A stretch of 45,201 nt of DNA from Nemertoderma westbladi (taxonomy: Eukaryota; Animalia; Xenacoelomorpha): contig JAUCBJ010001920.1 in NCBI GenBank assembly GCA_032718475.1, positions 1 to 45,201 of the forward strand, in the 5' to 3' direction. The translations under genes were made by a program, and so were the position numbers. Shown in pieces: positions 2,825 to 40,488 of the stretch. Below the pieces are notes generated by a model. That model was not told the origin of the DNA, did no database searches, and saw only the letters and a list, made by a program, of their open reading frames with translations. The number at the start of each line of letters is the position of its first letter. The stretch's first letter is position 1.

Positions 2825-3365
2825 TGGTATTTGTACCAGACACAACACAACTAATGTTAAAGCGACTGTAGTTGACATTGCTGCAGAAGTTGGTGTTGAT
2901 TTATCTGAAGGGATTGTAGGTATTAAAAGAATAGGTCCAAAGGTTCCTGCAACTCGTTCGAGTAACCCGGGACAGAAAATAGTAGTAACTCTAAATCCAG
3001 ATAAGCGGCTCGAACTCTTAAAAGCCACCAAGAATCTACAGTTCTCAGTGAAATTTACGGCAGTATACATAAATCCTGACTATACTCACGCAGAGGCCCA
3101 CGAACAGTACGAGCTTAGAATGGCTCTGAAAAAGAAGCGTTCCGAAGAACCTAACAAAAAATGGGTTATAAATCGTAATGAAGTGGTTGAACAAGCGCAG
3201 GCGACGGACTCCTCAAATGCGCACAAAGATACTAGTACTAGTAGCAAAGATTCACAGATCCATGAAGATGAGCTTCTGGATTCTCGAACTAAATCCGGTG
3301 AGGTACGATCTCGAGTTTTCCGACGCACAGAACCTCGCGACGACAATACTGAATGTATAGACTGA
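2825..3365 (+). pseudogene. CR1/L2-type LINE ORF1, C-terminal part
   Basis: Translates as ...IKRIGPK...KRLELLKATKNLQ...VYINPDYTHAEAHEQYELRMALKKKR...KKWVINRNEVV, the usual C-terminal pattern of CR1/L2 ORF1 proteins. Confidence 0.7.
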
Positions 3366-3469
3366 CTAGATTCAAGTTCCACTTCAGTTCAGATTCCAGT
3401 TCCTCCTGAAGTTCCAGAATCTGGACCAGCTCAACATTTATCCGCTCCTATTTCGTCATGTTTGGATAG

Positions 3470-4720: not shown

Positions 4721-5699
4721 AATAATGTAATAATTTATTTTTATTTTTACATTTATTACGTAACTAAAGATCCGCTCAACAACATAAATCAATAGTCCTA
4801 TTGGATACTGAGTTATGTTTTGGTGTGCGCCGTTTATACACTAAATTTGCAATAACTTTTGAGTGAGTGAATGGAATTTGCTCAAATTACGTGCAAAGCT
4901 TTTCTACGTCGATGCTCTTTCACCACATGTAATTAAATTTAAGAAATTCCATCAACAATATTTTAATTCACTTTTTTCGCCGGGAAAAAAGTAAAATCAA
5001 TGCAATCATTACTTTTTCTCTAAGGAAAAAAAGTGAAACTTTTATTCGGGAAATATTCGAGCGAAAAAGTAACAATTTAAGAATAAAATATTATACTTTT
5101 ATGCAGTGGTAATATTAATTGTATTGTAAATTTTTATTAAATTGTTACAACTAAGTATTAACATTTAAATCGAAGTTAGTAGGCTACATGCTATCAGTAA
5201 CAATGACTCTAAAGTCTTCCATACCTAACTGTCTTTCCATCGCGACAATTTACCGCGATGAGATATCGCACCCTCATATTCCTACTTGACTACCAGTATT
5301 TTAATAGATTCAATTCGATTCAATTTTCTCTCATTCACTGTCATTAAAATGTTATCCTGGTACAACACAAAATAGTTTCATGGTGTTATGAACCATCTTA
5401 ACCCTGCGTGCACCGACTTATATAAGGTCTGGGGGGTACATCACTCCCCCCCCCCCCCCCCCCCCCCCATGAAACCGCCACTGGCCAGACAGTGACTTTG
5501 GGAGAGTCACGTAAGTTTTGGGTTACTTTATGTGGGTTCTTTTTATTTCAAAACCATGTAAAATACAGTAAACGTAGGCCTACACGTAAACCGCATGTAA
5601 TATCTGTAACTTGTTTGGCTTAAATTTCAGTTTTTCAATGGAGCGGTGCATTTACTTATCCCAAGGGCTAGTCGAGCCCGCCAACTGATAACTAACTAA

Positions 5700-11487: not shown

Positions 11488-11614
11488 ATATATTAGCGAA
11501 AAAAAACATTTTTTCATGAACTTTTGTTAATGACTTTACGCCTAGGGCACCTACTAATATTTACAGTTTTTATTTAACTTTTGGGGCACAAAAGAAGTCA
11601 CAACCACGCCCAAG

Positions 11615-12313
11615 ATGAAAGGCATTTCAAATATTCCAATGATACTTTCTGCGCTTATTGTGTCAATTCAGATAAGGGCAAACGCAGGGGTGACATGCGA
11701 AACCGGTAACAACATCAACGTATACGCCGAAGATGACGAATCTCAAACCCTCATCGAAACGTATATAAAAGAATCCGTTCAAGTAGCTGATCCCGGAATG
11801 AAAGATCAATTAGACGTCACAAGAGCGACGGTATCAGTGGGTGGTTGCCAAACGTGCCACCAGCTGTCACTCCTGTACTACGGTGTCTCAAAAGCTACTG
11901 CTGATTTCCCTCTTGACGGGGAACACCTGACCTTTGAAGTTCTTTGGGTTGAATGTCGGAATACAACCGAATGCGAAAAGAAGAAGAAAACAGAAGCTGT
12001 CTGCACGGAAAGATGGCACAATGGTGAGTTGGAGAGCGAAGGTATCGACCTCCTCACAACGTTGTTGCAAACACGAATGGAAACCGTCAACACAATATGT
12101 CAAGCGGAATGTTGTGCAAGTTTCTGTGACACACATTGGGAGAATGACCCACGGGAATTTAAGGCATCAACAGTAGGCCTAACCTCGACAACGGCAGTTC
12201 CTACGTTCTCCACTAATGGATCTGGAGGGTCGTCTTCCTTCCCCTTGAGTGGCCTACTTGTCGGAGGCCTCGCAGCGACCATTATAGTTGGTGGATTGTT
12301 CCATCAGAACTAG
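11615..12313 (+). CDS. Secreted/GPI-anchored cysteine-rich protein, Ly6/uPAR (three-finger)-like, 232 aa, single coding exon
   Basis: Good start context GCCAAGATG, hydrophobic N-terminal signal ending ANA-G, 10 Cys ending CCASFCD, Ser/Thr/Gly linker, hydrophobic C-terminal tail, AATAAA ~20 bp after the stop, and higher GC than its flanks. Confidence 0.75.
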   Translation: MKGISNIPMILSALIVSIQIRANAGVTCETGNNINVYAEDDESQTLIETYIKESVQVADPGMKDQLDVTRATVSVGGCQTCHQLSLLYYGVSKATADFPLDGEHLTFEVLWVECRNTTECEKKKKTEAVCTERWHNGELESEGIDLLTTLLQTRMETVNTICQAECCASFCDTHWENDPREFKASTVGLTSTTAVPTFSTNGSGGSSSFPLSGLLVGGLAATIIVGGLFHQN

Positions 12314-18608: not shown

Positions 18609-19753
18609 TTCAGCCAAATGGAGAAGTCTTGGTTTCGTACCGTAGACTGTTATAGTCTTCGTGGTTGGAACCTCTCTGCATCGTATTAAATTGAATTAAG
18701 ATAGTTTATTATTTTGTAAGTAATATTGTGGTTTATGATTAATTTGACTGTTGACCGTTAGTTACGTAATATAGTGTTTATTGAAGTTTATTTATAGTTA
18801 AGTTTTACGCATACGGGATCCCGAGAGTGATAATCCCGGTCCCGATGCCGGAAATCCCGCAAATTTGCGCTAACCAAATTACCCGAGTAAGACAGTAAGA
18901 GTAGGACACGAGTCCAGTTTGCCCCTATCCGAGGCGCATCCCATTGCGTTCGTGGGTCACGCATTAAAATGGAGAAGTGGGCTTGGACTGGAAGATGGTG
19001 CTGGGCTGCCATAAGGCCAGACAGGATAGGAACGTCATATGCAGCAACCAGCTAATTAATCTACATCGCCTCTTCTGTACTTAACTCTATTTTATAATTT
19101 TTAACTGCTATTTGTGCTGTGTGGTGGGTTTCTCTATAGTTCTCTACCTATTAATTATCAGTAAATGTTTGTCTCTATACTTTTAATTAATAGGGTACTA
19201 TACCATTAATAGTGCCGGTGTGTCGATTTTTGTATTAAATGTTCCAGAATTTTTAGCCCCACCCATGAAACTTTCTACTTTTTTATATTTTATTCATCAA
19301 GACATGATTGGAGCATAAAATAGTTTTCATGTATTGGGTAACATCCTTTGTTAAGGGTAATAATATTTAGTATTAAATAAATAATTAAATAGCATTTATA
19401 TTAAAACCACCCATTTGCCCGAGTAAACAATCTAATTAAACTTATAACATTATTATTACTAATGAGGTGTATTCTTAGAAGTATACTATATTACAGAAAG
19501 GTGAAAGTTCTTCCTAATAAAATTACAGTTTATTAAATATAAGAAATAATTGTATATTATTATTAAGAATTCAGTGCATTAAGCGATATCGAAAGGGGTA
19601 CATAGATTACACTTTGATTGCCTATTCCTATATGAGACTGTGTGAGACTTGATTTGATTTTGTTGGACTATATGCATGCAATATAAGCAGCCAGAAATTT
19701 GTATAGCAAATTATATTTATATTATATTTAATATATTTTAAGCAATATGCTCT

Positions 19754-20779
19754 TTAGGGCGGTGCGTTTTTTACTTTTTTTCAATTTCATTTTTCTACCG
19801 GTGCACAAAAGTTGCCAAATGGCAAAAAAAATTTCTTTAAATTTCGTCTATATCTTCATGGATCCCAAGAAGGTTGAAATTTTGTGCCATCGCGATGCAC
19901 CATAATGAAATGTATAACAACATAACACATTGATGAAAGATCAATGACTCAAAAAAGAACTTCCTGCATGCATCAAATGTCATGAAATGGGTCCAGACTT
20001 AGTTAGATACCAAAATTTTAATTTTTGGATCAAGGGAAGTAGTGCCACAGGCACATGACCAGAACCTACTCTTTGGCGCAAGTGATGATTATTCTCAATT
20101 TTGGTGATGGACAACTTTTAGATCTCCTACGGCATTATTATTATGCTCATTAGAACCGCAATGACCGATTTAGTGGGGGTAGACACCATCAAAATAAGCA
20201 TAGAGCGAATTTGATTCCTTGAGATAATTCAAAATATCATTTATTGTGTATTTGTCCATATCACATCAAGGAGGTATGTAGACTTGTGCCGTACTTCACA
20301 TTTTCTGCGATATCTCAAGAACTATTCGCTCTATGCTTATTTTGATGGTGTCTACCCCCACTAAATCGGCAATTGCGGTTCTAATGAGCATAATATGAAA
20401 TCAAAGTTGGCCATCGCGAAAATTGAGAATAATCATCACTTGCGCCAAATGGTAGGTCCTGGCCATGTGCCTGTGGCACTAGTTCCCTTGACCCAAAAGT
20501 TAAAATTTTGGTATCTAACTAAGTTTGGACCCATTTCATGACATTTGATGCATGCAGGAAGTTCTTTTTTGAGTCATTGATCTTTCATCAATGTGTTATG
20601 TTGTTATACATTTCATTATGGTGCATCGCGATGGCACAAAATTTCAACCCTCTTGGGATCCATGAAGACATAGACGAAATTTAAAGAATTTTTTTTGCCT
20701 TATTTTTTTACCATTTGGCAACTTTTGTGCACCGGTAGAACAATGAAATCGATAAAAAGTAAAAAACGCACCTCCCTAA
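19754..20779. mobile_element. Foldback non-autonomous DNA transposon (~470-bp TIRs, ~85-bp spacer)
   Basis: TTAGGGCGGTGCGTTTTTTAC...GTAAAAAACGCACCTCCCTAA with near-perfect inverted arms 19754-20226 / 20311-20779, flanked by GCTCT on both sides. Confidence 0.9.
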
Positions 20780-20921
20780 GCTCTTATGTCTATCACAACA
20801 TTACAATCGTCATGTTTACGAATATGGCAACGAAATTCTCGAGAACCTACTCAAACTATTATTAAATTTTAAGAAAATAAGTGTAGCCCTTTGTGTACCA
20901 AAGATAAAGATTATAAACTTA

Positions 20922-21380
20922 TCCTACCCTCAAAGGCGGCACCATGCCGCCTTTAACCATTTTCGAAATTTATAAATCTTTCATTTGAACTCCGGGGGGC
21001 ACACTGCAGCCTTAATCATTTGTAACATAATTATTGGCTAAATTTAAATTAAATTGCATAAACTATGTAATTTAAAATTAATCAAACCAACAGGAATCCC
21101 TTCAAGCAATAAATTAATTTTTCTAGACCAGTTTTTCCTGCACGACACGAATATGAACTCCATTTATCCGCCCCAATAGTTATAAGAAAGTTATAAGAGG
21201 TTTTTATAAAGAGGCGGCACCCTGTCGCCATGGGAGTCAGGATAATATATGTAAAGGCGGCACTCTGCCGCCATGAGGGTTAGGTTATAATTATATAAAG
21301 GCGAAACACTGCTACCCTGGGGATCAGGATAATATTATATATATGTAAAGGTGGCACTTTGCTGCCATGGGGGTTAAGTT
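20922..21380. mobile_element. Degenerate piggyBac-like MITE
   Basis: CCTACCCTCAAAGGCGGCACCATGCCGCC is inverted at ~21255-21284. The GGCGGCA-n-TGCCGCC dyad is repeated, and the right end is GGGGGTTAA. Confidence 0.4.
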
Positions 21381-22698
21381 ATAATTACAGTATTTAAAGG
21401 CGGCAGTATGAGCATTTTCATGAATTATGAACATGAGTACGTGTCGTGACAATACGTGTGATGAACTCGTACCGTGTTGGTACGCAAAGTGTTAAAGGCA
21501 AATAGGTCTATGATACAGTTGCTGAAGTTAATGACGTTGTAGCAGGACGATATAGCTGGTTTTCTGCTCTTGTATCTGGGTCAGTACAAAACGAAGACCA
21601 AGGACTTACAAAACTAAGAGGTAAAGTAGCGTTAGGTCCCAAAGAGCGTTAGGTCTCATTGGCATTTAAAGGATCAGGTTAGTAAAGGAGCAGGTTACAT
21701 AGTCATAGTTGGGGGAACCAAAACAATAAACGAAAGTTATCACATGTGTTTCGTACAGGTCTTAAGTTTTTGGGTCTTGTGTATTTGTTTTGTACTCACC
21801 CTTTTGTATTTATTATTGCACGCTTGTAGCAAATTATTATTGCCAATCTGTTGTTCTATGTACTAATACCGTTGTGGACACCCAAGAGTCTATAGATCGG
21901 ATTAGAGACCAAGTTTATTTTGCAAATTTTTTGACAATAATGCATTACGTGCTACGAGATGGGGGAGGCATGATTATACGAGATAGGGTGTTAAAAGATT
22001 GGATATTACGATATGGAATAAAACGAAATATTACAATAATCCTTTTCTTCTATTTCGTGAAGCAATGATTCAAATTTCGCGATCGATTCAAATCTCGCGA
22101 TTCAAATTGCGAGTTAGTAAAGGAGCAGGTTAGCAAAGGAGCAGGTTTCAGAGGAGTATTGGGGGAACCAAAACAATAAACGTTATTGTTTCGCAGGCTA
22201 AGAATACCCACTGGCTAGGAATACTCGCATGCTAAGAATTCCTGAGACCGTACATTTACAAAGAAATTGAGCCTGGAAATTGCTTTATCGACCACCTTAT
22301 AATAAAAATATAATAAAAATAATTTCCCATTCATCATTCATATAATTTGTTCAACAACTTATACAATTAAAAATTTGTGATATTCGATGTTTCATTGAAA
22401 GCACTATAATATAACATCGCGATCTTAAATGTTCAATTTGTCATTCCCCTCAATTATACACGATATATGATGTTTCCGGACACCAAGTTGTGCCTACAAT
22501 CAAAGAAACTTAATATCAATAAATAACCAAAGACGAAAAAGCAATATCACACTCCCTCACATTACCCTCACATTATACACCACACCCCCTAGTGGTAGCA
22601 CAGGAATTGATGTCACCACAATTTTCAAATAATCAGTCCCACTGAAAGGGCACAACTCTGAACAAATAGTGCGTCGGCACAACTAGAAATCGGCTATC

Positions 22699-22699
<1 letters not shown>

Positions 22700-22777
<78 letters not shown>
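22700..22777. repeat. (GA)n microsatellite
   Basis: Directly visible. Confidence 0.98.
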
Positions 22778-22779
<2 letters not shown>

Positions 22780-23206
22780 ATTTGCATGGTGCATGGAGCC
22801 CTACTGTTACCTCCCAGTGCCAGACTAGCCCTCTGGCTACCCATTCGGATTCACAACAAGCCCTCCAGTGACATTAGGCCCTACGGTTACAGGTAATGAT
22901 AGGGCGCAAGCCCTATGGTACCTATTATGGCCCTATAGCTACTTGTGATATTTATAGCTTTTCATTGGCTGTTAGTTCTATTATTGGTGTACTTATACTA
23001 TATATTCAGACCATGCTGCTGCTCATTGTAGTTATGTATTTGTTAAAGTATTTGTAATGTTTTTGCATTTTTGTACTTAATCGAGTATTAATTATGTTTT
23101 GTATTTAGACATTTATCCAATTACAATACAATACCGGTACAAGTTACAATGTTCTATTACTGCACCTGTACTTATCTCCCTAGCTTGCTAACCACTAGGC
23201 TAATTA

Positions 23207-24865
23207 TTGTGTGTTAAACGTAGGCCTACAATCATCGCGTTTCATATTTTCCAATATTTCGTCACCCATCGCCATCATATGTTTTGTTGGGCCCTATGGC
23301 AAATGCAAGCGTATCTAATGGCGGCGATAATGCTCCCAAACGGTGTTAGACCTTGCAATATTACTGATATGACAGTACAACATGTTGAAAAGAGGAAGCA
23401 CATTGAGTTTGACAAGACAATTATTAGAATTCCACATCATAAGACTTCTGCTACTTTCGGAGGCCAGGATTTGGTTATGAGTCGGGCGATATATTATGCC
23501 CTGAAGAAGTGGTGCTACTATGGGCGTGGTTTATACTCGAAAGAGAAAATAATTATCGACAATGTGTTCACGACAACTCTCGGAAAAGAAATGGATAATG
23601 TTTCACGTCAAGTCCAACGGTTATGGCACATCCTCTGTCCCAATTCATCATCCACGATGACTGCCACTGCTAATAGACACTGTATTTCTACCTGCAATCA
23701 ACATACAAGTAGCGTTACTGATCATAATTTGCAGCAACGCATTTCAAATCACATGAAGCATTCAATGAATACACAACGCCGCGTTTATGCTGCTGCTAAT
23801 ACTGAGGTTGAGGCTGTGGAGGCATACAAAATCATCGAGAACTTTTGTGATATTACATCAACTACTTCAAATAGTGATGAACACCTCATTCCAAAGGAAA
23901 ATGATGTACTGTTATCTCAAGCCTCTGTAGATTCGACTGAAGACAATTTGCTTAAAGAAATAGTTTCTGAGATTCCTCAGTGTGATACACAAGTAGACGT
24001 GGATGGTCAAACGTATATAGAATGTGACTTGATGGACTTTGAGAAGATTCTGGATACTTGCGAGAGTGTAATTCGCGTCACAGCTTCTCAATCCCAGCCG
24101 CTGGTTAACGTCCCCATGGTTACCACTTCTCAATCCCAGCCGCTGGTTAACGTCCCCATGGTTACCGCTTCTCAATCCCAGCCGCTGGTTAACGTCCCCA
24201 TGGTTACCGCTTCTCAATCCCAGCCGCTGGTTAACGTTCCCATGGTTACCACTTCTCAATCCCAGCCGCTGGTTAACGTCCCCATGGTTACCACTTCTCA
24301 ATCCCAGCCGCTGGTTAACGTCCCCATGGTTACCGCTTCTCAATCCCAGCCGCTGGTTAACGTCCCCATGGTTACCACTTCTCAATCCCAGCCGCTGGTT
24401 AACGTCCCCATGGTTACCACTTCTCAATCCCAGCCGCTGGTTAACGTCCCCATGGTTACCACTTCTCAATCCCAGCCGCTGGTTAACGTTCCCATGGATA
24501 CCGGTTTTCAATCGCAGCTGTTGGCATTAACCTCATCTAATGATTATTCGATACTTCCATCTCCTCTTAAAGAAATGGACTTTAATAAAGCTACGAAAAA
24601 GAAACCGAAAATTAGAAGAAATTTAGACGAAGGTGTGAGAAAAGCTGTTTCCAATAACAAACGTATCTTATGGTCAAAAGAAGAAGTTGATATACTAATC
24701 GATGAATTACGTCCGTTCCTTAATGGAGTTCTGTTTTTCCGTGGTGGAAAAACGAAGGAAATCTACTTAAGTAAAGCGGCCCAGCGTCTTCCAGGCAGAA
24801 CCCCTCTTCAGATATATGATAAATTTAGAGACATGAAAAAAACTCAGAAAAACCGTGATTGGTAA
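23207..24865 (+). CDS. Tyrosine recombinase (Crypton-like) catalytic domain + 14-aa repeats + C-terminal Myb/SANT-like domain; true start uncertain (ATG at 23279 or 23303, or 5'-truncated/spliced)
   Basis: NGVRPCNITDMT (R48), HHKT (K79), NVFTT, TATANRH (TxxR157), NHMKHSMNTQRRVY (H185, Y194) appear in YR order and spacing. The C-terminus reads WSKEEVDIL...LPGRTPLQIYDKFRDM. No stop over 1.6 kb. Confidence 0.8.
   Translation: MCVKRRPTIIAFHIFQYFVTHRHHMFCWALWQMQAYLMAAIMLPNGVRPCNITDMTVQHVEKRKHIEFDKTIIRIPHHKTSATFGGQDLVMSRAIYYALKKWCYYGRGLYSKEKIIIDNVFTTTLGKEMDNVSRQVQRLWHILCPNSSSTMTATANRHCISTCNQHTSSVTDHNLQQRISNHMKHSMNTQRRVYAAANTEVEAVEAYKIIENFCDITSTTSNSDEHLIPKENDVLLSQASVDSTEDNLLKEIVSEIPQCDTQVDVDGQTYIECDLMDFEKILDTCESVIRVTASQSQPLVNVPMVTTSQSQPLVNVPMVTASQSQPLVNVPMVTASQSQPLVNVPMVTTSQSQPLVNVPMVTTSQSQPLVNVPMVTASQSQPLVNVPMVTTSQSQPLVNVPMVTTSQSQPLVNVPMVTTSQSQPLVNVPMDTGFQSQLLALTSSNDYSILPSPLKEMDFNKATKKKPKIRRNLDEGVRKAVSNNKRILWSKEEVDILIDELRPFLNGVLFFRGGKTKEIYLSKAAQRLPGRTPLQIYDKFRDMKKTQKNRDW
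24077..24496 (+). repeat. In-frame 42-bp coding minisatellite, 10 copies (VT[A/T]SQSQPLVNVPM)
   Basis: Near-identical units TTCTCAATCCCAGCCGCTGGTTAACGTCCCCATGGTTACC[A/G]C. Confidence 0.97.
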
Positions 24866-25089
24866 TTAATTATTAATTAAACGGGAATTTATATTTGCAA
24901 TTATTTTTGATCTTAAACTGTCCTCTAATTTACTTAATATTTTTTGAAGCAGAATTTTCAGGTTTAAAAGTTGTGTTGTTTGTTGTTTCCTTGGTCGTTT
25001 TGTTTTATTAGTTATTTACATTAAAGTGTTTTTTTATTGTTTACAATTATTTAGGAGTGATTTATTTACAATAAGAAATATTAGTCATT

Positions 25090-25560
25090 AACCATTCCAT
25101 CTCCTCTTAAAGAGATTATTGACTTTAATAAAGCTACAAAAAAAATAAAAATTTAGGAGATATTTAGAACAAGATGTCAGACAAGCTGTTTCCAATAAGA
25201 AACGTGTATTATCGTCGAAAAAAGTGCATGATATACTAATTTATGAATTTCGGCCATTCGTTAACGGCAATTGGCCTGGGGGGGGGGGGGGGAGGGGGGC
25301 ATTTATATGCATGAAATTATTTTGGGTTTTGGATTACTTATTTACATTTGGTGAGTCCTTGGTCGTTTTGTTTTATATTCCTTGGTCGTTTTGTTTTATA
25401 TTCCTTGGTCGTTTTGTTTTATATTCCTTGGTCGTTTTGTTTTATATTCCTTGGTCGTTTTGTTTTATTAGTTATTTACATTGTTTTACATACAGTGTTT
25501 TGTTTATTGTTCACATTTTTACACAATATATTATTAGGTAGATATCTTCTTTTATAATTA
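25090..25560 (+). pseudogene. Decayed tandem duplicate of the Myb-coding 3' end and 3' flank of the YR ORF
   Basis: TTCCATCTCCTCTTAAAGA...GACTTTAATAAAGCTAC...AAGCTGTTTCCAATAA matches 24555-24727 with stops. CCTTGGTCGTTTTGTTTTAT (single at ~24990) is amplified about 5 times at 25357-25470. Confidence 0.85.
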
Positions 25561-26605
25561 GTAGTCCTACTTGCAAATAGTTCATTATTGTGCTACTTTT
25601 TCATACCGGTACTTATTGCCTTGAATGCTAATAATTATTGCCATTCATTTTCCTGTAACGTTACAATGGAATAGTTATTCGAAAAAAGGAAGTCAACGGA
25701 TAACTATAACTGTACTTTCTTTCTATCATACATTTCCAATTGGCAATTCAGAAAGAGCGAAATTCAGATATTCTGCCTTGGTGTATTGTGTTTTGTACTC
25801 GTTGGAATTTAAACACTCGCTACTGTTGTCTATAAACCTACCAACTCAATGAGGGCAGAATAATGAATATCGCTCATCGTCGTTCGGTCGTCATTTTTTC
25901 GAATATATTTTTAATTAAATGCAATTTAATAATTGTTAATCAATCAGAATGATTTGTTTGCATAATACTATTAATAGTGATTATAATGTCATAATAATGA
26001 TTGCTGTCATAATTCACCACAACTGATTCGTTTTCAAACTCTGCCAACGGAATATAACTTATCTAAGAATGCATGTGGGGTGGGTGTAAGAAATATGATC
26101 CTAATCCTATGTGAAGAATATCATCGTTTCAAAAGAATCCATACATGACGTCATGCTGGCAAGGGGATCGATCGGGTACGCTTTATTATAACTGTTTTAT
26201 AGTGAGTTTCGAAATATTATTTGACAAATTGTAAGTATTGACGTAATGACGTGACGTTAAGTGACGTCATTTATGGAAAATCCTGTCGTTGTCCAGTCAC
26301 AATTCCGATTATCCGATTTAAAAACCCCGTAATACAAAGTGATTTCATTATATTCCATGGAAGCTGAGGGGTCCTCCTCCTTTAGATCGCGTTCCTGTAG
26401 AGTCCACAAAACCTTGGATGGCATATACTCCCAAATGATGGGCACTTGTTACTGTCTATAACACACATTATTGGACAAATAAATATTAGGACATTGAAAG
26501 CCGCTGGTAAAACCAAGCCCTCCCTTCATATACAATTATATAATTAGTGCAGAGCACATAAATTACCAGTAGGCCATATACAAAACGAGAAGATAATCTG
26601 ACGCA

Positions 26606-29365
26606 TATGTCTGTCTCCTAAATAACGTTATGTATATGTGTCTCCTAAACAACGTTATGTATATGTGTCTCCTAAACAACATTATGTATCTATGTCTCCT
26701 AAACAACGTTATGTATATGTGTCTCCTAAACAACATTATGTATCTATGTCTCCTAAACAACGTTATGTATATGTGTCTCCTAAACAACGTTATGTATATG
26801 TGTCTCCTAAACAACGTTATGTATATGTGTCTCCTAAACAACGTTATGTATATGTGTCTCCTAAACAACGTTATGTATATGTGTCTCCTAAACAACGTTA
26901 TGTATATGTGTCTCCTAAACAACGTTATGTCTATGTGTCTCCTAAACAACGTTATGTATATGTGTCTCCTAAACAACGTTATGTATATGTGTCTCCTAAA
27001 CAATGTTATGTATATGTGTCTCCTAAACAACGTTATGTATATGTGTCTCCTAAACAACGTTATGTATATGTGTCTCCTAAACAACGTTATGTATATGTGT
27101 CTCCTAAACAACGTTATGTATATGTGTCTCCTAAACAACGTTATGTATATGTGTCTCCTAAACAACGTTATGTAAATGTGTCTCCTAAACAACGTTATGT
27201 ATATGTGTCTCCTAAACAGCGTAATGTATATATGTCTCCTTAACAATGTTATGTATATGTGTCTCCTAAACAACGTTATGTATATGTGTCTCCTAAACAA
27301 CGTTATGTATCTATGTCTCCTAAACAACGTTATGTATATGTGTCTCCTAAACAACGTTATGTATATGTGTCTCCTAAACAGCGTAATGTATATATGTCTC
27401 CTTAACAATGTTATGTATATGTGTCTCCTAAACAATGTTATGTATATGTGTCTCCTAAACAACGTTATGTATATGTGTCTCCTAAACAACGTTATGTATA
27501 TATGTCTCCTTAACAATGTTATGTATATGTGTCTCCTAAACAATGTTATGTATATGTGTCTTCTAAACAACGTTATGTATATGTGTCTCCTAAACAACGT
27601 TATGTATATGTGTCTCCTAAACAACGTTATGTATATGTGTCTCCTAAACAACGTTATGTATATGTGTCTCCTAAACAACGTTATGTATATGTGTCTCCTA
27701 AACAACGTTATGTATATGTGTCTCCTAAACAACGTTATGTATATGTGTCTCCTAAACAACGTTATGTATATGTGTCTCCTAAACAACGTTATGTATATGT
27801 GTCTCCTAAACAGCGTAATGTATATATGTCTCCTTAACAATGTTATGTATATGTGTCTCCTAAACAACGTTATGTATATGTGTCTCCTAAACAACGTTAT
27901 GTATCTATGTCTCCTAAACAACGTTATGTATATGTGTCTCCTAAACAACGTTATGTATATGTGTCTCCTAAACAGCGTAATGTATATATGTCTCCTTAAC
28001 AATGTTATGTATATGTGTCTCCTAAACAATGTTATGTATATGTGTCTCCTAAACAACGTTATGTATATATGTCCCCTAAACAACGTTATGTATATGTGTC
28101 TCCTTAACAATGTTATGTATATGTGTCTCCTAAACAACGTTATGTATATGTGTCTCTAAACAACGTTATGTATATATGTCCCCCAAACAACGTTATGTAT
28201 ATGTGTCTCCTAAACAACGTTATGTATATGTGTCTCCTAAACAACGTTATGTATATATGTCTCCTTAACAATGTTATGTATATGTGTCTCCTAAACAATG
28301 TTATGTATATGTGTCTTCTAAACAACGTTATGTATATGTGTCTCCTAAACAACGTTATGTATATGTGTCTCCTAAACAACGTTATGTATATGTGTCTCCT
28401 AAACAACGTTATGTATATGTGTCTCCTAAACAACGTTATGTATATGTGTCTCCTAAACAACGTTATGTATATGTGTCTCCTAAACAACGTTATGTATATG
28501 TGTCTCCTAAACAACGTTATGTATATGTGTCTCCTAAACAACGTTATGTATATGTGTCTCCTAAACAGCGTAATGTATATATGTCTCCTTAACAATGTTA
28601 TGTATATGTGTCTCCTAAACAACGTTATGTATATGTGTCTCCTAAACAACGTTATGTATCTATGTCTCCTAAACAACGTTATGTATATGTGTCTCCTAAA
28701 CAACGTTATGTATATGTGTCTCCTAAACAGCGTAATGTATATATGTCTCCTTAACAATGTTATGTATATGTGTCTCCTAAACAACGTTATGTATATATGT
28801 CTCCTTAACAATGTTATGTATATGTGTCTCCTAAACAACGTTATGTATATATGTCTCCTTAACAATGTTATGTATATGTGTCTCCTAAACAACGTTATGT
28901 ATATGTGTCTCTAAACAACGTTATGTATATATGTCCCCCAAACAACGTTATGTATATGTGTCTCCTTAACAATGTTATGTATATGTGTCTCCTAAACAAC
29001 GTTATGTATATATGTCTCCTTAACAATGTTATGTATATGTGTCTCCTAAACAACGTTATGTATATGTGTCTCTAAACAACGTTATGTATATATGTCTCCT
29101 TAACAATGTTATGTATATGTGTCTCCTAAACAATGTTATGTATATGTGTTTCCTAAACAACGTTATGTATATGTGTCTCCTAAACAACGTTATGTATATG
29201 TGTCTCCTAAACAACGTTATGTATATATGTCTCCTTAACAATGTTATGTATATGTGTCTCCTAAACAACGTTATGTATATATGTCTCCTTAACAATGTTA
29301 TGTATATGTGTCTCCAAAACAATGTTATGTATATGTGTCTCCTTAACAACGTAATGTATATGTGT
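26606..29365. repeat. 27-bp tandem array, ~100 copies, with higher-order structure
   Basis: Unit TGTCTCCTAAACAACGTTATGTATATG with no unique spacers. Confidence 0.98.
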
Positions 29366-29368
29366 TAG

Positions 29369-29667
29369 TATGTTACAAGTAACAATAGGGCTAGTTGTTC
29401 GGAATTAAAAAAGCAAAATTAAAAACAAAATAGCCAATATTAGTGAACAAAAAATTCCAGATCTCTTATTTTAACATAAAATAAAACATCACCATTACTT
29501 ATGAAGTTTAAATAGTAATATAATTTACTAATTAATAAATATATGTTACAAGTAACAATAGGGCTAGTTTTTCAAAATTAAAAAAGCAAAAATTAAAAAA
29601 CAATTACAAATATTAGTAAACAAAAATTTCCAGATCTCTTATTTTAACATAAAATAAATCATCACCA
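29369..29667. repeat. ~173-bp tandem duplication adjoining the array
   Basis: TATGTTACAAGTAACAATAGGGCTAGTT...CCAGATCTCTTATTTTAACATAAAATAAA at ~29369 and ~29542. Confidence 0.9.
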
Positions 29668-30182
29668 CAAAAATTCATGATTGCTAAGTCACTGATCGAA
29701 AAATAGTTTTTGCAAAATTTCGTTCAAACCAAGTAATCTTTCTAAGACGCAACTTCTTTGACATAATGTAATACATCAACTCATTTTTTTGAAAAAGCCG
29801 TGCGAGTGACCGATTTAGAATACAAAATGTTAGAATTGTAATTATTTGATGGTATATTTCGTATATCAATTTAGGATCTTGTTCAAAAATCCAAAAAAAC
29901 CTAAAAAAAGTGAAAATTTTGAAAATTTGACATTTTTGTGCCTTTTAACTCGTAACCATAGGGCATTTTGGTAATGCTATTAAATGGCATTGCAAATCAT
30001 TTTATGATATTAACAAAACATTAATAATTCTTTAATTTTTGATGGGATGGACCTGGTTTTTGTTTTACTCATTAAGTATGAGTTGCTTTAATTGAATTTG
30101 CTTTGAAAAATAAGTTTGCACATTCTAGCACAAACTTATGCGAGTCTTTCAAACACTGGCCCTATTGCGACTTTGCAAAGCA

Positions 30183-30213
<31 letters not shown>

Positions 30214-30217
30214 GAGG
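30183..30217. repeat. (GA)n microsatellite
   Basis: Directly visible. Confidence 0.95.
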
Positions 30218-30839
30218 AAGTAGAGTAGAATAAGATACAGATTCATAATTATTTTATCAAACTCATGTACTACTTACTTCAATGTGCCAATTGTAATAAT
30301 AATTAAACATTACTCTGATTACGCTGGGTTTGGCCCCATGAGATATTATACTGACGTATTTTATATTAATATATCCATGCGAGTAAACAAGAAGTGAAGT
30401 AAATGTTTATTATTGTAGTTTTAGAAATTGAATGATATACCCAAGATAATGAAATAGATAATATACCAGAAATTGCCATTTGATCAGATATATCAAAGCG
30501 GCGTCTTTAGTATAATACAATTCACTCTGTTATACAATGTAAATATACTAAATCTATTTATAAATATATTATGAGCCCTACATTGTATATTTATCCTACA
30601 GGTAGATAATGTAGTATGTTAAAACTTGATATAATTTGGTATAATGTATAACATATTACAAATAAGACTGAGGCAGCTAAACTATATTGCAAAGAAATCA
30701 AATATCCCAAAGTAATATACTAGACCCTCCCTCCACCCTATAAATAGTGTTCACCACCTACCCCACCCACCGCCCTCATTACTTCATTATAATGAAAGAT
30801 AGTACTGGCGCTCCGGTCACTCCGTTCCCTCCGCTGGGG

Positions 30840-32550
30840 GGGTTAAGTAGTAGGTTCTGACACTATGCAAAATTCGAGCACAGAGTTAGAAGCGCATTGG
30901 ATAGGCGAACATTTCTTGCAGTGAAAGTATTTCCATATCTGTTAAAGTTTTCGAGATAGTCAGACATGAGTAGCTAAAATTTGAATTTTTTTTCGGTAAA
31001 GTCTGATTTCACCGGTACCTGTCATCCGAAATATGGATTGTGATATATCGTTAGATGCGGGTTTACAAACTGTACATTCACATTTTTTCAAGAAAAAAAT
31101 TCGATCAAGGGTTTTCGAAATATTTTAGAATTACCGGAAGCAGACTTTGGACGACCATATCTCCGGTACCGGTAGGCCTATTGAGTCGAAACTTTTCTAC
31201 TAATCTACTTAGAACACTCCAGTGAATGTTTTTTAGTTTGAAAGTTTTGCCCCAAAATGCTCAGAAGTAATTTCGAAAAAACTGATCATTTCGCGATCAT
31301 GATCTTTTGACCCCCTAGAATTGAACTTTTTTATGGTCAAATTTTGGCTACCCCCCCTAATTCGAGGGTGAGGAATCTTTTTGTAATGTTAAGTTTTTTC
31401 ATACGGTGAACTCACAGGACTTGGTCTTCGAAATAAAACCGAAAACATGATCTTTCATGATCATGGCCTGATCAATTCGCTTTTTGAAAATTTCGAAATG
31501 CTTAAAAGTTGCCCCTTCTTAATAGAAGTCGATTAGTAAAAAAAAAATCGGGGGTCTCAAACAAAGTTTTCGAGAAAATCGGGAAAAACCGAAAAACACG
31601 ATCTTTTATGATCAGGTATAAGATCTCGAGAACCGGTTGTCCGATCAAGCCAATTTTTTTTTAATCAACTCAGAATAGGCCATTGAACATTTCTTACAAT
31701 GAATGTTTATTAGAAAAATGCTTAGATTCGATTTTAAATATACTGATCTTTTCGCGATCATGATCTTGAGTTTTGACCCACTAGACTTGAACTTTTTTAT
31801 GCCCAAATTTTGGCTACCCCCCATAATTCGAGGGTGAGGAATATTTTTGTGATGTTAAGTTTTTCTATACGGTGAACTCCCAGGACTTGGTCTTCGAAAT
31901 AAAACCAAAAACACGATATTTTTTGATCGCGGACTGATCAATTCGCTTTTTGAAAATTTCGAAATGCTCAAAAGTTGCCCCTTTATCATAGAAGTCGATT
32001 CGTAAAAACAAAATCGGGGGTCTCAAACAAAGTTTTCGAGAAAATTGGAAAAAACCAAAAAATATGATCTTTAATGATCAGGTATCAGATCTCGAGAATC
32101 GGTTGTCCGATCGAGCCATTTTTTTTTTAATCGACTCAGGGCGGTGTTCTGAACGTTTCCTACAGTAATTGTTTATATCCAAAATGCTTAGTTACGATTT
32201 TACGAAGTCCGATCTTTGCGCGATCATGATCTTGCGTTTTGACCGGGAAGAATTCACTTTTTTTTAAATCTTTTAACGGGAATCATGACTAATGTGGGGT
32301 CGCTGAATCTTTTTGTAATGTTAAGTTTTTCGATTGGAGCAAGCCTTGAGTGTCCGATCCCTGATCAAAACTGATCTTTGCTGATCATGGTCAAGATCAT
32401 GATCTGATCGCTGGAGATTCCTGCATAGCAACGCGGTTGCTAGGGAAGCGGACTTTTTGACTCAAATTGGTCCTAGACGGAGAACCGTAGACTTTTTTAA
32501 CACATTATGTATGGCGAAAAGTCTTCTGGATAGATTTTGGGGGGGGGGGT
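30840..32550. mobile_element. Unclassified non-coding element with about three ~465-bp internal tandem units
   Basis: CGCGATCATGATCTT recurs at ~31292, ~31753 and ~32219, and GATCTCGAGAA-CGGTTGTCCGATC at ~31622 and ~32088. Rich in GATC; ends in a G-run. Confidence 0.6.
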
Positions 32551-35500
32551 CTAGGAACATCCTATTGTTCGTTTTCGCTTAGTTGCTGAGATCCTCTCGT
32601 CCCACAAATTCCAGGATTCTATAAAGGCATTCTGCTGGACTAGTTCCGTGGCCGGAATAGTGTTCGGTGTTCTGCGAACAGAGAACCTAATCAGTTTAGG
32701 GCCCTGACCGTCCAGTGGAATCTGGGTAAGTGTCTTCTCAGAACTTCGTTGAATATGGACCAGAGTTGTTTCCAGAATATTTATTAACCTATGGTAATAT
32801 GGTGGTAGGGTTTGTGAACTAGTTATATTGGGGGGCGCTATACTGCGTGACGTTCTTACAAATGGACTATAACGACGTCTCATTTGGTCAATGTGGCGAT
32901 GGACAATGACACCGCACACTTCAACCGTGATAATTCTATTTCCGATGTATTGAACCACTTTACAAGGCAACCAACGCTCATAGTGCCCAGATAATCGTGA
33001 ATAATTACGTATCCTTACAGCTTCACCAATAACGTAAGGACTATTTTTGGGTCCTTGATCTTTGCTAGGAAGTTGATCAGTCTATCTTATCAGGTCTTTT
33101 GCTTGTACGCAAACACCAACTCAGCGGGTGTTTTCCCATTTGATTTTATTGCATTATGGTCAAACACCATGAATCTACTTATACGATCTGCCATAGATAA
33201 TTTTTCATTATCATCTTCTTGTTTCTTTAATGACGATTTGAATGATTGCACTAGTCTCTCAGCTGCACAATTACAACACGGTTTATATGGTGGTGAGGGC
33301 CATCGGTTAATGCCATTTGCAATGCAAAAAGCCACCAATTCTTTGGCTCGGAATTGGGGACCATTATCTGATATGATAATATTAGGGATAGAGAAATCGG
33401 CGAAAAATTTTCGAAGTTCAGTTCAGTTACTATAGCTGCTGTTGCTGTGTTGGGAAGGATAACTCGAGACCATTTTGTCTTGACACAATTCTATTCCTAA
33501 GAAGATTGTCGATTCGTATTCTGCAAAGTCAAGATGTATTCTTTCAAATGGTTCTTTCGGTTCTGGCATTGGACATGTTGTAACATGAACCTCTTTCACA
33601 CATCTATGGCAACTTTTATAACATTTCACATATAGTTCTATATCTTTGGAGATTCCCAACCACCAAACTATATTACGAGCAGTTTCTTTCATTCGTCGTG
33701 TGCAAATATGTGGTCCATGGAGCTCTTGGAGAACATTCTTCTGAAGTGATGTTGGGATTATTGTTGCTGTTCCTCTTCATAAAATTCCATCATTACTGGA
33801 TAGTTCAATGTCAATCATTAAAGGTTTGTAATCATTAAGAGCTTTTTCCTTTGCAATTCTGGAATTTGGACAGTTTAAATGCTGTAGTATTAATTTTAAA
33901 ATGTTATCATTAGCAGTGGCTGCTTTTAAACCATCTCGATTTAATGGAAATCTCGAATGTTTTGCTCTTCTTGAATATCAAAGCATTTGATATCAATGTC
34001 ATCATCTACAATGCTACCTGGTTGCGAAATTCGAGTAAAACAATCGGATGTGTTCAATTGTGACTTTATGTATGACATAGGACATTTATGTATGACATTT
34101 ATATAGGACGACAACTCCATTGCCCAGTGCTAAAGCTGGCAGACTGCTAGAGCTGGCAATGCCTTTGAAGGTGATAATATAATATATGTTGGAGAGGCTC
34201 GTTGTCGGTAATCAAATTGAATTTTCTAACTATTAAATAATTTCTGAATTTACGAATTCCACTAATGATAGTAACGATCAAGTTGTGAAGAGCGCTTCTG
34301 ACATTGTGATAGAGAAGCAGACATGAATTCGATAGGGCATAGATTTCCTTCAGTATTCTTTTGTAACAATATTGCAGATATTGTCTGTTCTGAAGCATCT
34401 GTAATTAGATGTGTTTCTTTTCTTGTATCAAAAAAACAAAGCATTGTATATTTTGTAATGGACCGTTCCAGGTTGGTAAAAAGCCTTACTTTCAATTATG
34501 GTCCGCAAAAACTTATTTCCTTTCTCTAACATTTTGTAAATGGGTTGGCCCATTTCTGCATAATTCGGGATGAACTTTCTCAAATAGTTGAAGAATCCTA
34601 AAGCTGACTGAAGCTCTTTGGCAGTTGAAGGTTCCTGCAATTTCACTACAGCTTCAATTTTGTCTTTATCACTTATCAGGAGCGATTCCATGTTTCGAAA
34701 TGACATGACCACAGAATTTGACTTCATCCTGTAAAAATGCACACTTTTCTTTCCATAACGTTAGGTTTCGTTATTGTAATTGTTTGAGAACTTTGCAATG
34801 TCTCTCTAAATGATCCTGACGATTTGTAACTGTTATTACTATTTCGTCCATGTAAGCAGCAATGGATTCTTTACAGTCGACTTCTTGAAGTACCTCATCA
34901 ACAACCTTTAAACACTTAGTGCTGGCAGTTTTTATCCCATAAGGAACACGAGTTGGTATTAAGAGTCCAAGTGGAGTATTTAAAGTCGTAAGTAGTTGGG
35001 AATGATGATCTAGAGGAAGCTGATGGTAGGCTTCTCTTAGGTCAATCACTGTAAACTCTTCTCCACCTTCTAGTTTTGCTGCAATTTCGTCAAATGTAGG
35101 TAAGTGAAATGGATCATCTATGATATGTGGATTTAATGTACTTTTATAATCCCCACAGACTCGTATTTTGTCACCTATACCAGGTTTTTTTGTGACAACA
35201 AGTGGGGCAGCCCATTCAATGTTTTCATTTGGAAGTGGTTTATGAAGGCTGCCCTTGTCAATATCTGACTGTAATATTTCTTTCTCGCGAAATGCGTGGG
35301 AGACAGTTCTACACTTTTAAAACTTGGGCTGGGCATTCACTTTTAAACTAACATTAGCTGGCGTCCTAATCCATCAAATACATTTCTGTTATTTTCAAGA
35401 ATAGTTTCTAAGGCATTCTCCTGTTTACTAAGTACTTCACTATGAATGGAGCAGTTTCTACTAGCTTTACCACTCATTCTCCAAACGTATCCACCCAATT

Positions 35501-36060
35501 TTCCAAAAAGTAGTGTATTCACTTTTCAATTTATCACTAGTAATGGTAGATTATTAACTGTCAGAAGACCCATAATTTGGGATTATTTTAGAAAATAGTA
35601 CCATTAACCCATTATATCTCGTTTTTCAAAATTGCATGCCTCTTCGTAATTTCGTGCAACTTGAATCGCGGTAGCAAAATCTGTAGGTTTTGACCGCATC
35701 AATTTTGTAGCTATAGATTCATTCGCTATGCCTCCAAGCAATTGTTCTTTCAGCCTGCTGTCCCAGCTTTTGTTCCCAGCTATTGTTCTTTCAGCCAGCT
35801 TTCAGCCTGCTTGTTCCAAATTCACAGTAGCGTGACAAGGAACGTACATGTTTAACAAAATCAGTTACAGATTCTGCAGACAATTTCTGCAATCTAATAA
35901 ATTTACGTACTTCAGTCTCTTGGTTTATAGATGTTTGAAAATAATCATTGAGAGCATATATAATGACTGTAAATATAGCATCATTGACGTCTACTGGGTA
36001 AATCATATCTATTATTATTTCAAGGAGGTCAGTTCCATAATTTGAAATTAAAATTTTCCA
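32551..36060 (-). mobile_element. Degenerate Ty3/Gypsy LTR retrotransposon internal region (gag-RT-RNaseH-integrase)
   Basis: Minus-strand fragments: gag (ESVTDFVKHVRSLSRYCEFG), RT (WAAPLV, IRVCGDYK, IDLREAYHQLPL, AYMDEI), RNase H (LITDAS, FNLITDNEPL), integrase (VWWLGISKDIE...CYKSC, RIHLDFA, ISDNGPQF, AERLVQSFK), C-terminal RHIDQMR. Many stops and frameshifts; LTRs not identified. Confidence 0.92.
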
Positions 36061-36276
36061 TACTAAAACAAGGACGGTGGTGACTGCTGTACTGGGGTTG
36101 GTATACTGCTGTACTGGTGTATGTTAATGGAATAGAGTCTGCATACTGCTAGGCCTAACTGCCATTAATTTCTGTATTTACTTTTTTCGCGAACATAAAC
36201 GACTCAGATTATTGCTGTAAACCGCACTCAGTCGTCGAGAAAGTAGTCTCCGATATCAATTATACTCTCGACCATC

Positions 36277-37025
36277 ATGCCTCAAAAATCCACTAAAGAC
36301 AACGTTACTCGATCGAGTTCCCGCACTGCCTCGCCCCACCTCGATGCCGATATCGACGCGACCGGTACCGTTACCGGTTCAGGTGCAAACCAAATTGCTG
36401 AGGTCCTAGCTGCTATTTCTGCATTAAACCGCGAACTGTCCATTATCAAGTCTGATATTACCGTAGGCTAATTAAAAAGGAAACAGCCGGACTTGCCGAA
36501 ATCAAATTGCGTGTCGAAGCTATGGAAAGCAAAATCAATGTTGCTATCCCGGAGAAACTGTCTGCACTTGATGATCGTATCGATGATCTTGAGCAACACT
36601 CACGGAACTATAACTTGTTAGTACACGGTGTAGGAGAGGAAAATTCGCTGACGGAATCGATTCAACTCCTCAGTTTAAATAAACAAGACATTGATAACTT
36701 CCATCGCCTGGGAGCCAAGCGTAACGATCCACGGTCTAAACCTCGCGCGATTATTATTCGATTCGTAAGCAGGATGCGCCGCGATCAGGTGATGAAAGAG
36801 AAAAAGGGCAAACTAGCGAGCGGGGCTTATATTACGGAACATCTCACGGTGCACCGGGCCTCGTTGCTACGCACTCTAAAGGATCTAAAAAAGAAGGGGA
36901 GCCTCCATTCTGCCTACTCTGTTAATGGAGTTATTCTCGCTAAGGTTGAAGAACAACAACGTCCGATTCGAATAACCTGTGCGGACGACATTCAAATCAA
37001 GTTGGGGATCCCGATTACTATCTAA
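36277..37025 (+). pseudogene. LINE ORF1 (coiled coil + RRM/CTD, L1-transposase-22-like), one 5-bp frameshift
   Basis: RIDDLEQHSRNYNLLVHGVGE...FHRLG...PRAIIIRF...YITEHLT...NGVIL. Removing GGCTA (36466-36470) joins the two ORFs in frame. Confidence 0.88.
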
Positions 37026-37349
37026 TCATGTGTTATCCTCCACTGTTTATTTTATTTCGGTAACTTAACAGCTGGGAATCTTAGTCCTAGCCCCAGGAAC
37101 CTGGATTACTTAATCTGACAACTTTATATTACTTCACAAATACGTATAAACAAATTTCCCCATCCGTAAATCTAATACGGCAGATTGGCCGAGCAGATAT
37201 GCACTTATTATATGCATTAATTTAGCTGCTAGGTTTATCTTTTAGTAGTTCCGTAGTGTTTAACGGTAAGCATTTTTCGTATCATTTTTAGTACCAATTC
37301 AAATACCTGCGACAGGAGATAAGGACAACAGTACTTCCACCCTTTTCCC

Positions 37350-40300: not shown

Positions 40301-40488
40301 ACAACACAAGATCAACAACAAAAAAAAGCTACTATGTACCACGGACCCGACTACTACAAGGACAGAAATCATTAAAATATAACGGTGTCATTGTCTGGAA
40401 CACGCTAGATGTAGATATGAAACAAAGTAAATCGAAAAAATCATTAGGAAGAAAATTAAAAAATAAACTAATAAATGAGCTACAGTAA
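37350..40488 (+). pseudogene. LINE ORF2: PHD finger, AP endonuclease, reverse transcriptase; frameshifted at ~38520-38549
   Basis: CDFC...CAIC...HLPC...CTFC; NCRSL, FTET, GGTAIY, IYRP, GDFN, LLDHI, TDH; NYRPISIL, QYGFR, DLKKAFD, GTPQGAILS, YINDL, FADD, KFLGIWID. Confidence 0.95.

What the first reader, a model, noticed from the sequence alone, without database searches (positions are those of the whole stretch)
23207..24865. Uninterrupted tyrosine recombinase fused to a Myb/SANT-like domain through a tandem-repeat linker
Seen: a stop-free 552-codon frame in a window where every other TE ORF is broken, with R48 (NGVRP), K79 (HKT), TxxR157, H185 and Y194 (HMKHSMNTQRRVY), an acidic region, 10 perfect 14-aa repeats and a terminal WSKEE...GRTPLQIYDKFR segment. 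Known: this residue order is the lambda-integrase-family catalytic set, and eukaryotic YRs occur in Crypton, DIRS and Starship elements. Here the HxxR histidine is replaced by Thr and there is no adjacent DIRS-type RT. Inference: a poorly characterised animal YR family with its own C-terminal DNA-binding module, either the mobiliser of a DNA element or a domesticated derivative.
Basis: partly seen in the sequence, partly recalled or inferred. Interest (0 to 1): 0.85.

Follow-up and report, generated by a model that had tools for sequence, protein, structure and literature searches.

The report
Truncated animal recombinase with Myb tail
This open frame encodes a real DNA-recombinase domain joined to a Myb-type DNA-binding tail, a layout shared by a wide, barely annotated family in marine animals that likely belongs to jumping genes, but this copy lacks the family's front-end DNA-gripping domain, likely through a deletion, so it is probably not a working enzyme.

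Summary
The 552-codon frame, the tyrosine-recombinase (YR) fold and the Myb-like tail are real. Neither highlighted oddity is special to this locus. Thr replaces the HxxR His in 35 of 44 homologues and His occurs in none. 21 of 26 homologues with a long enough tail carry the same Myb-like domain. 'Uninterrupted' misleads: the core-binding domain seen in longer relatives is absent from all six frames of the window. Contigs of three DNA runs from two samples enter at 23288 from other DNA that is stop-free in this frame; two leave at 23289 through a splice-acceptor-like join. The window copy is therefore likely a ~0.5-kb deletion allele whose first 27 codons are intron, with an undeleted allele alongside. 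Named relatives are uncharacterised echinoderm, scallop and tunicate proteins. The family resembles nimaviral YRs (PMC10871703) and probably Repbase CryptonV; membership was not testable. Most likely a defective copy of a Crypton-type DNA transposon; ends and copy number are unresolved. The scan's earlier notes hold no match.

The parts
22700..22777 (.). (AG)39 microsatellite 511 bp upstream of the recombinase domain; possible insertion target or left end (unproven)
   Evidence: 3.4% of the window lies this close downstream of a long (AG)n array
22890..22898 (+). best-scoring splice-donor-like site between the microsatellite and the recombinase exon (candidate only)
   Evidence: simple consensus scan, 5 of 7 positions; no RNA data
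23207..23287 (+). codons 1-27 of the reported frame: no homology to the family, likely intron read through by chance after the deletion
23288..23289 (.). inferred deletion junction with 2-base microhomology; other alleles carry extra DNA here (about 0.5 kb expected from the family profile)
   Evidence: loose ends before 23288 in X1, X2, X3 (101 letters) and behind 23289 in X2, X3 (table 7); unitig breaks at both points (table 8)
23288..23866 (+). tyrosine-recombinase catalytic domain (aa 28-220) with R48, K79, R157, H185, Y194 and Thr at the HxxR His position
23852..24079 (+). acidic spacer (aa 216-291)
24080..24499 (+). 10 near-perfect 14-aa (42-bp) repeats forming a long linker; not seen in the homologues
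24650..24862 (+). Myb/SANT-like three-helix domain, homologous to the C-terminal domain of the family; the family profile's best PDB hits are telomere-repeat-binding Myb domains
25095..25566 (+). degenerate tandem duplicate of 24555-25086 (start of the Myb region plus 3' flank), about 79% identical over its first 172 bp, interrupted by poly-G
25356..25468 (.). 4.9 copies of a 23-bp unit inside the duplicate
30183..30216 (.). (AG)17 in the same orientation as the upstream array; possible right end of a 7.4-kb element (speculative)
   Evidence: the inverted similarity of the two ends (9 of 14) was reached by 274 of 5000 random pairs

Best explanation
The frame encodes a tyrosine-recombinase catalytic domain linked to a Myb-like domain and is likely a deletion-damaged copy of the transposase gene of a Crypton-type DNA transposon from a widespread animal family. 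Shown: the fold, the catalytic residues, the family-wide Thr and Myb tail, the absence of the core-binding domain from the window, and the existence of other alleles with extra DNA at 23288/23289. Inferred: the undeleted allele supplies a splice acceptor and about 170 residues of core-binding (SAM-like) domain. By analogy with Cre, Xer and lambda Int (established knowledge), four subunits would pair the element's ends, cut through a 3'-phosphotyrosine on Y194, resolve a Holliday junction, release a circle and re-insert it at a short homologous target. The Myb domain on its long linker would act like the arm-binding domain of lambda Int, holding subterminal sites or a simple-repeat target such as (AG)n. 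The window allele, lacking the acceptor and the core-binding clamp, would be non-autonomous; at most it could make a catalytic-plus-Myb fragment from Met25-Met42.
For: YR fold: AlphaFold2 pLDDT 88.5; the top 16 Foldseek rows shown are XerH, XerA, Tn1549 Int, a staphylococcal integrase and Cre, best E 3.7e-5; VIA Z 11.8, rmsd 6.9, 162 aligned to XerH; family profile to XerA E 2.5e-7 over core-binding plus catalytic domains. Conservation among 47 homologues (non-gap rows): R48 40 of 42, K79 43 of 45, R157 42 of 43, H185 43 of 43, Y194 40 of 41; position 154 is T in 35 of 44 and H in 0. Myb tail: 15.4 bits against a profile built without the window row, best of 1000 shuffles 11.2; 21 of 26 homologue tails at E<1e-4, of which 14 built the profile and 7 of 12 were held out; three-helix model pLDDT 86; best PDB hits TRF2/Tbf1 Myb, E 8.6e-4. 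Missing domain. Deletion. The 30 letters shown before 23288 are stop-free in this frame and closed in the other two; the 23 letters behind 23289 complete a pyrimidine-rich acceptor (both read by eye). The extra DNA shows no terminal inverted repeat or 4-6-bp duplication, so an inserted element is a poorer fit. Mobile-element traits: TE-dense window; relatives only 23-35% identical and scattered over crinoid, brittle star, scallop and tunicate; one relative occurs as 14 full and truncated versions on large contigs; one carries a SET domain and 10 of 47 carry C2H2-like motifs.
Against: No element ends, empty site or independent insertion of this element was found. Copy number is unresolved: YR depth follows the 3' flank (ratios 1.46, 0.71, 0.53 in X1-X3), a 50:50 variant at 25827 in X1 fits one heterozygous locus, and no diverged sibling copies of the YR exon appear at 80-88% likeness. 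Only 30 + 23 letters of the other allele were seen, so its coding content and the 0.5-kb size are inferred. 24 of 47 homologues also have under 110 residues upstream, though many look like partial gene calls. No locus of any homologue could be fetched, so mobility of the family is not shown here. Myb support for the window alone is weak (Pfam E 0.002, below cut-off; no Foldseek hit at E<=0.001).
Confidence: 0.63

Rival explanations
1. Domesticated host gene: a single-copy YR-derived DNA-binding or recombination factor whose repeat linker and Myb domain serve the host; the window shows a null or short allele.
For: Depth can be read as one locus with two alleles; old repeats scale with the 3' flank alike in all four runs (152-229 and 45-65); almost no variation in the YR exon (2 variant sites). 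Crypton domestication is published (PMC3212892, passages).
Against: No orthologue above 35% identity among 1.84 billion representatives; all five residues are kept, whereas the DUF3504 genes lost the Tyr and second Arg (PMC3212892, passage); the domain-removing allele is in two independent samples, and in X1 the undeleted junction has only 29% of the YR depth.
Confidence: 0.12
2. The gene is the integrase of a much larger unit (a giant cargo-carrying transposon, or the remnant of an endogenous large DNA virus of the nimavirus kind) that spans at least 22790-26600 and is present in several near-identical copies.
For: Long diverged repeat contigs lie at depth 23-58 while 22790-26600 lies at 84-1715; flank to low-depth ratios are 17, 18.5 and 8 in X1-X3. 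The family's layout (C2H2, SAM-like, five of seven key residues) fits the description of nimaviral YRs (PMC10871703, passages).
Against: No viral gene is recognisable among the 52 frames of 100 codons or more (15 window sequences were scanned against Pfam); no close match in BFVD (best E 1.2e-4, TM 0.51); 0 of 4 scans of viral contigs gave a relative. The tool states that contig depth is no copy number.
Confidence: 0.15
3. The window holds the ancestral, complete gene of a naturally short (catalytic plus Myb) protein, and the other alleles carry an unrelated insertion with a 2-bp duplication.
For: The frame has Met codons at 25, 33, 38 and 42; several database homologues also begin just before the first Arg; the Myb domain might stand in for the core-binding domain.
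Against: The extra DNA has no inverted ends or LTR-type duplication, completes a splice acceptor and is open only in this frame; full-length relatives carry both the core-binding and the Myb domain (e.g. P0018, P0032, P0033, P0035); only 15-23 residues would precede the first catalytic Arg.
Confidence: 0.1

Closest known systems
Nimaviral telomere- and 28S-specific YRs and related non-viral decapod YRs (Kawato et al. 2023, PMC10871703; abstract, passages, sections 15 and 26 read; figures not held)
   Same: Described as having a C2H2 domain, an N-terminal SAM-like domain and five of seven key residues, unrelated to DIRS, Enterprise and CryptonA/F/I/S, and tied to insertion into repeats. This family has C2H2-like motifs in 10 of 47 members, SAM-like Pfam hits in 2 of 44 and five conserved residues.
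   Different: No viral genes in the window; no Myb domain is mentioned in that paper (0 occurrences); which five residues they found is not stated in the text; no sequence comparison was possible.
CryptonV (Kapitonov and Jurka 2012, Repbase Reports 12:2034; seen only as a citation and one sentence in PMC8869645)
   Same: Animal YR-only DNA transposon, some families inserting specifically in microsatellites; here a long (AG)n lies 511 bp upstream.
   Different: No CryptonV sequence or domain description was available, so neither identity nor difference could be tested. That CryptonV may be this SET/YR family is my recollection only.
CryptonA (DUF3504), CryptonF (GCR1_C), CryptonI, CryptonS (PMC3212892, PMC13465315; passages)
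   Same: YR-only DNA transposons; CryptonF also fuses a C-terminal DNA-binding domain to the YR; introns are common in some.
   Different: They are described with the R-H-R-Y tetrad; here the His is Thr family-wide. No DUF3504 or GCR1_C hit in the window protein or in 0 of 44 homologues; the tail is Myb-like.
Starship captain (DUF3435) and DIRS/Ngaro YRs
   Same: YR fold; eukaryotic mobile elements.
   Different: DUF3435 hits 1 of 44 homologues weakly (E 9.5e-5, below cut-off) and not the window protein; no RT or RNase H is linked to this gene (the nearest RT pieces belong to a Gypsy-type pol with an rve integrase and to a LINE).
XerA/XerH, Cre, Tn1549 Int, lambda Int
   Same: Catalytic fold (Z 8-12) and, in full-length relatives, the core-binding domain.
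   Different: Extra DNA-binding module is C-terminal and Myb-like rather than an N-terminal arm-binding domain; His of HxxR and the acidic residue after the first Arg are not kept.

Membership tests
Tyrosine recombinase (lambda integrase) superfamily | catalytic-domain fold | tested here: met
   (Z 11.8, rmsd 6.9, 162 aligned to XerH)
Tyrosine recombinase (lambda integrase) superfamily | catalytic R-K-(H)-R-H/W-Y set | tested here: met
   R, K, R, H, Y conserved in 40-43 of 41-45 rows; His of HxxR replaced by Thr family-wide
Tyrosine recombinase (lambda integrase) superfamily | core-binding (SAM-like) domain ahead of the catalytic domain | tested here: not met
   absent from the window in six frames, present in longer homologues; likely present in the other allele
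Myb/SANT domain | three-helix domain with Myb profile match | tested here: met
   weak alone (Pfam E 0.002, below cut-off; Foldseek best E 0.23) but supported by the family profile and model
CryptonA / DUF3504 | DUF3504 domain | tested here: not met
   no hit in the window protein (E<=1) or in 44 homologues (E<=0.01)
CryptonF | C-terminal GCR1_C domain | tested here: not met
Starship | DUF3435 captain at the end of a large cargo element | tested here: not met
   no DUF3435 hit in the window protein; 1 of 44 homologues weak; ends not found
DIRS/Ngaro | linked RT/RNase H and inverted or split direct repeats | tested here: not met
   no RT frame in 19000-32500; no such terminal repeats in 19000-27000
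CryptonV | YR clade identity with Repbase CryptonV sequences | not testable with these tools
   no CryptonV sequence available; literature searches gave 2 papers with passing mentions
CryptonV | insertion in a microsatellite | tested here: inconclusive
   (AG)39 511 bp upstream and (AG)17 5.3 kb downstream; ends not demonstrated
Crypton (general) | short terminal direct repeats and dispersed copies | tested here: inconclusive
   ends not found; depth fits one locus or 5-25 near-identical copies
Nimaviral YR clade | phylogenetic grouping with nimaviral YRs | not testable with these tools
   sequences not in the supplements searched and no close BFVD hit
Nimaviral YR clade | C2H2 + SAM-like + five of seven key residues | tested here: inconclusive
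   met by some full-length homologues; the window copy lacks its N-terminal part
Endogenous large DNA virus | viral core genes nearby | tested here: not met
   none recognisable among 52 frames of 100 codons or more

The most novel reading that the evidence does not exclude
A pan-metazoan superfamily of tyrosine-recombinase transposons, not yet defined in the open literature, that lacks the HxxR histidine, aims at simple or telomere-like repeats with a tethered telobox-type Myb domain, sometimes carries a SET methyltransferase, and supplied nimaviruses with their integrases; in this animal it is young, with intact and core-binding-deleted alleles side by side, and may move a unit much larger than the gene.
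Probability: 0.25. Interest if true: 0.72.

Novelty: new member of a known kind. Interest (0 to 1): 0.4.

Why it matters
As a single locus it is a damaged transposase gene. The family is the interesting part: animal YRs with a constant Thr in place of a catalytic His and a C-terminal Myb domain most like telomere-binding proteins give a concrete, testable idea of how YR elements and endogenous nimaviruses could pick microsatellite or telomere targets. A naturally occurring intact allele with almost no variation would be a good substrate for the first biochemical test of an animal YR of this type.

Tried and rejected
No genome is held for this window, so no tBLASTn for copies, no synteny and no dN/dS. 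No RNA holder listed; this is no evidence on expression. X5 has no contig over 22790-24070 while holding the Myb part and the flanks; a hole proves nothing. Word-index protein searches: 0 hits for the domain alone, 0 in a mis-set length range of 1613-4605 aa, 4 hits with alignment A2. phmmer of the domain alone against PDB sequences: 1 chance hit. P0013 was dropped from all counts as a low-complexity chance hit; P0002 and P0007 were also left out of the profile; 8 of 48 short rows were left out of the tree. The tree places the window protein on a long branch inside the family without starred support; no Crypton, DIRS or nimaviral sequences were available as outgroups, so it says nothing on family rank. 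Locus searches with alignments failed for lack of conserved stretches; single-protein scans gave one spurious bacterial locus, L001, and nothing in viral contigs. The joints 22991-25936, 22883-25937 and 22249-25277 were rejected as deletion derivatives: short sides or many mismatches point to other loci. The idea of ends at the two (AG)n arrays was not supported beyond chance (274 of 5000). PHROGs: no family for the window domain. Atlas: top cluster 0.97, automatically named setd8-like, and an integrase cluster at 0.91; tail under 0.9, lead only. Ten paper searches found no description of a YR + Myb or YR + SET animal element; Repbase Reports and Kojima 2020 are not held, so this is no proof that none exists. 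PMC9004415 and PMC13236599 (passages) added nothing on this family. Supplements of PMC10871703: 3 files searched, hits only in the review file; the main store gave no answer and figures are not held, so the YR alignment of that paper was not seen.

Full report
Observation. The linker is 10 near-perfect, not perfect, 14-residue repeats, and its unit is open in 3 of 6 frames, so it adds nothing to the case for selection. The other TE frames are broken: a LINE ORF2 split once near 38500, and a fragmented Gypsy-type pol.

The recombinase is real. Pfam Phage_integrase is weak (E 0.0024, below cut-off). An exhaustive search gave 44 proteins at E<=0.001, 23-35% identical; one, P0013, is a chance hit and was dropped, and 4 more came. 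Among these 47, R48 is kept in 40 of 42 non-gap rows, K79 in 43 of 45, R157 in 42 of 43, H185 in 43 of 43 and Y194 in 40 of 41. A 32-sequence profile hits XerA at E 2.5e-7. The model (pLDDT 88.5) matches XerH, XerA, Tn1549 Int and Cre (best E 3.7e-5; Z 11.8, rmsd 6.9, 162 aligned).

The two oddities are family traits. The HxxR His position holds Thr in 35 of 44 rows, Ser in 6, His in none. A profile of 14 homologue tails, built without the window row, scores the window tail 15.4 bits against a best of 11.2 in 1000 shuffles, and finds 7 of 12 held-out tails at E<1e-4. The tail folds as three helices (pLDDT 86). The family profile's best PDB hits are TRF2 and Tbf1 Myb domains (E 8.6e-4); Foldseek gives Myb, SANT and homeodomain rows with none at E<=0.001. 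What is particular to this locus is the length of the linker. Named relatives are uncharacterised proteins of a crinoid, a brittle star, a scallop and a tunicate; 1 of 44 has a SET domain, 2 of 44 a phage-integrase SAM-like hit, and 10 of 47 have C2H2-like motifs.

The copy is not whole. 23 of 47 homologues have 110 or more residues before the point where the window's homology starts. A profile of that region finds 22 of 23 held-out members but nothing in the window's six frames (best i-E 0.51); the full profile matches only from position 177 of 452. Laying contigs of four DNA runs explains why. In X1, X2 and X3 (two samples, two studies; X1 may be the source of the window) one contig enters at 23288 from 101 letters of other DNA; the 30 letters shown are stop-free in this frame and closed in the other two. 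In X2 and X3 a contig leaves at 23289, and its first letters complete a pyrimidine-rich splice acceptor; in one frame the next seven residues resemble the start of the family's core-binding domain (by eye, weak). The unitig breaks in X3 at both points imply that both forms are present. The simplest reading is a deletion with a 2-base overlap that removed the acceptor and about 170 codons, leaving 27 codons of intron in frame by chance. In X1 the undeleted junction has depth 429 against 1455 for the YR.

Copy number is open. The tool warns that contig depth is no copy number. Long diverged repeat contigs lie at depth 23-58 while the region 22790-26600 lies 8-18 times higher, which fits 5-25 near-identical copies. 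Against this, YR depth follows the 3' flank within a factor of two, a 50:50 variant in X1 fits one heterozygous locus, and old repeats scale with the flank alike in all four runs. Either way there are no diverged siblings at 80-88% likeness. Ends were not found; the (AG)39 array 511 bp upstream is suggestive (3.4% of the window lies so close) but the end similarity with the downstream (AG)17 is at chance level.

Mechanism. Shown: fold, residues, Myb homology, missing domain, second allele. Inferred from established YR biochemistry and the Crypton model quoted in PMC3212892 (passage): the full-length protein would synapse the ends, cut through Y194, release a circle and re-insert it, with the Myb domain holding subterminal sites or a repeat target. 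The window allele would be non-autonomous. Rivals are domestication (0.12), the integrase of a larger or virus-derived unit (0.15), and a naturally short protein (0.10).

Comparison. It works like a Crypton-type YR but fails the defining tests for CryptonA, CryptonF, Starship and DIRS. The nearest description I could read is that of nimaviral YRs in PMC10871703 (abstract, passages, sections 15 and 26): C2H2 plus SAM-like domains, five of seven key residues, repeat-specific insertion, and non-viral relatives in decapods; that paper does not mention Myb and left CryptonV out of its reference set. CryptonV is known to me only from one sentence in PMC8869645 (microsatellite-specific YR transposons) and a table entry in PMC5753468. 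Neither membership could be tested. Ten searches found no account of the YR-Myb layout, but Repbase Reports are outside the library.

Verdict. A real but likely defective member of a widespread, under-annotated and probably already catalogued animal YR family. Interest 0.4; the family-level novel case has probability 0.25.

Noticed in passing
window 11558-12313 (+): 251-codon open frame with a signal-peptide-like start, a Cys-rich body, a Ser/Thr-rich stalk and a hydrophobic end, like a GPI-anchored surface protein; no Pfam hit at E<=1.
   Followed up: partly
window 19754-20779: 1,026-bp foldback element with long inverted arms (95% complementary), ends that read as the telomere hexamer and its complement, and a 5-bp flanking duplication; an empty-site joint 19748-20780 is seen in three runs and the element is very deep in X1-X3 but shallow and 14-17% diverged in X5.
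   Followed up: partly
window 36456-40488 (+): Near-intact LINE: ORF1 (189 aa) and a PHD-like/endonuclease/RT ORF2 split by one frame change at a short trinucleotide run near 38500-38545.
   Followed up: partly
window 32551-36123 (-): Fragmented Gypsy-type LTR retrotransposon pieces: gag, RT, integrase zinc finger and rve.
   Followed up: partly
window 26612-29365: 27-bp minisatellite, 102 copies, 93% matches, giving long spurious open frames on both strands.
   Followed up: no
window 21578-21801 and 22118-22182: Short hairpin-like repeats with the highest depth in all four runs (bin depth up to 150,000 in X1); a likely old, very abundant small element.
   Followed up: no
window 2778-4795 (+): Broken LINE-like ORF1 and endonuclease-like frames; no Pfam hit above cut-off in the two pieces scanned.
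   Followed up: partly
window 31159-32334: 466-bp unit in about two copies, 79-86% alike.
   Followed up: no
protein P0018: Full-length relative with the order SET - C2H2-like - core-binding - YR - Myb-like in one 701-aa chain: a histone-methyltransferase domain fused to a recombinase.
   Followed up: partly
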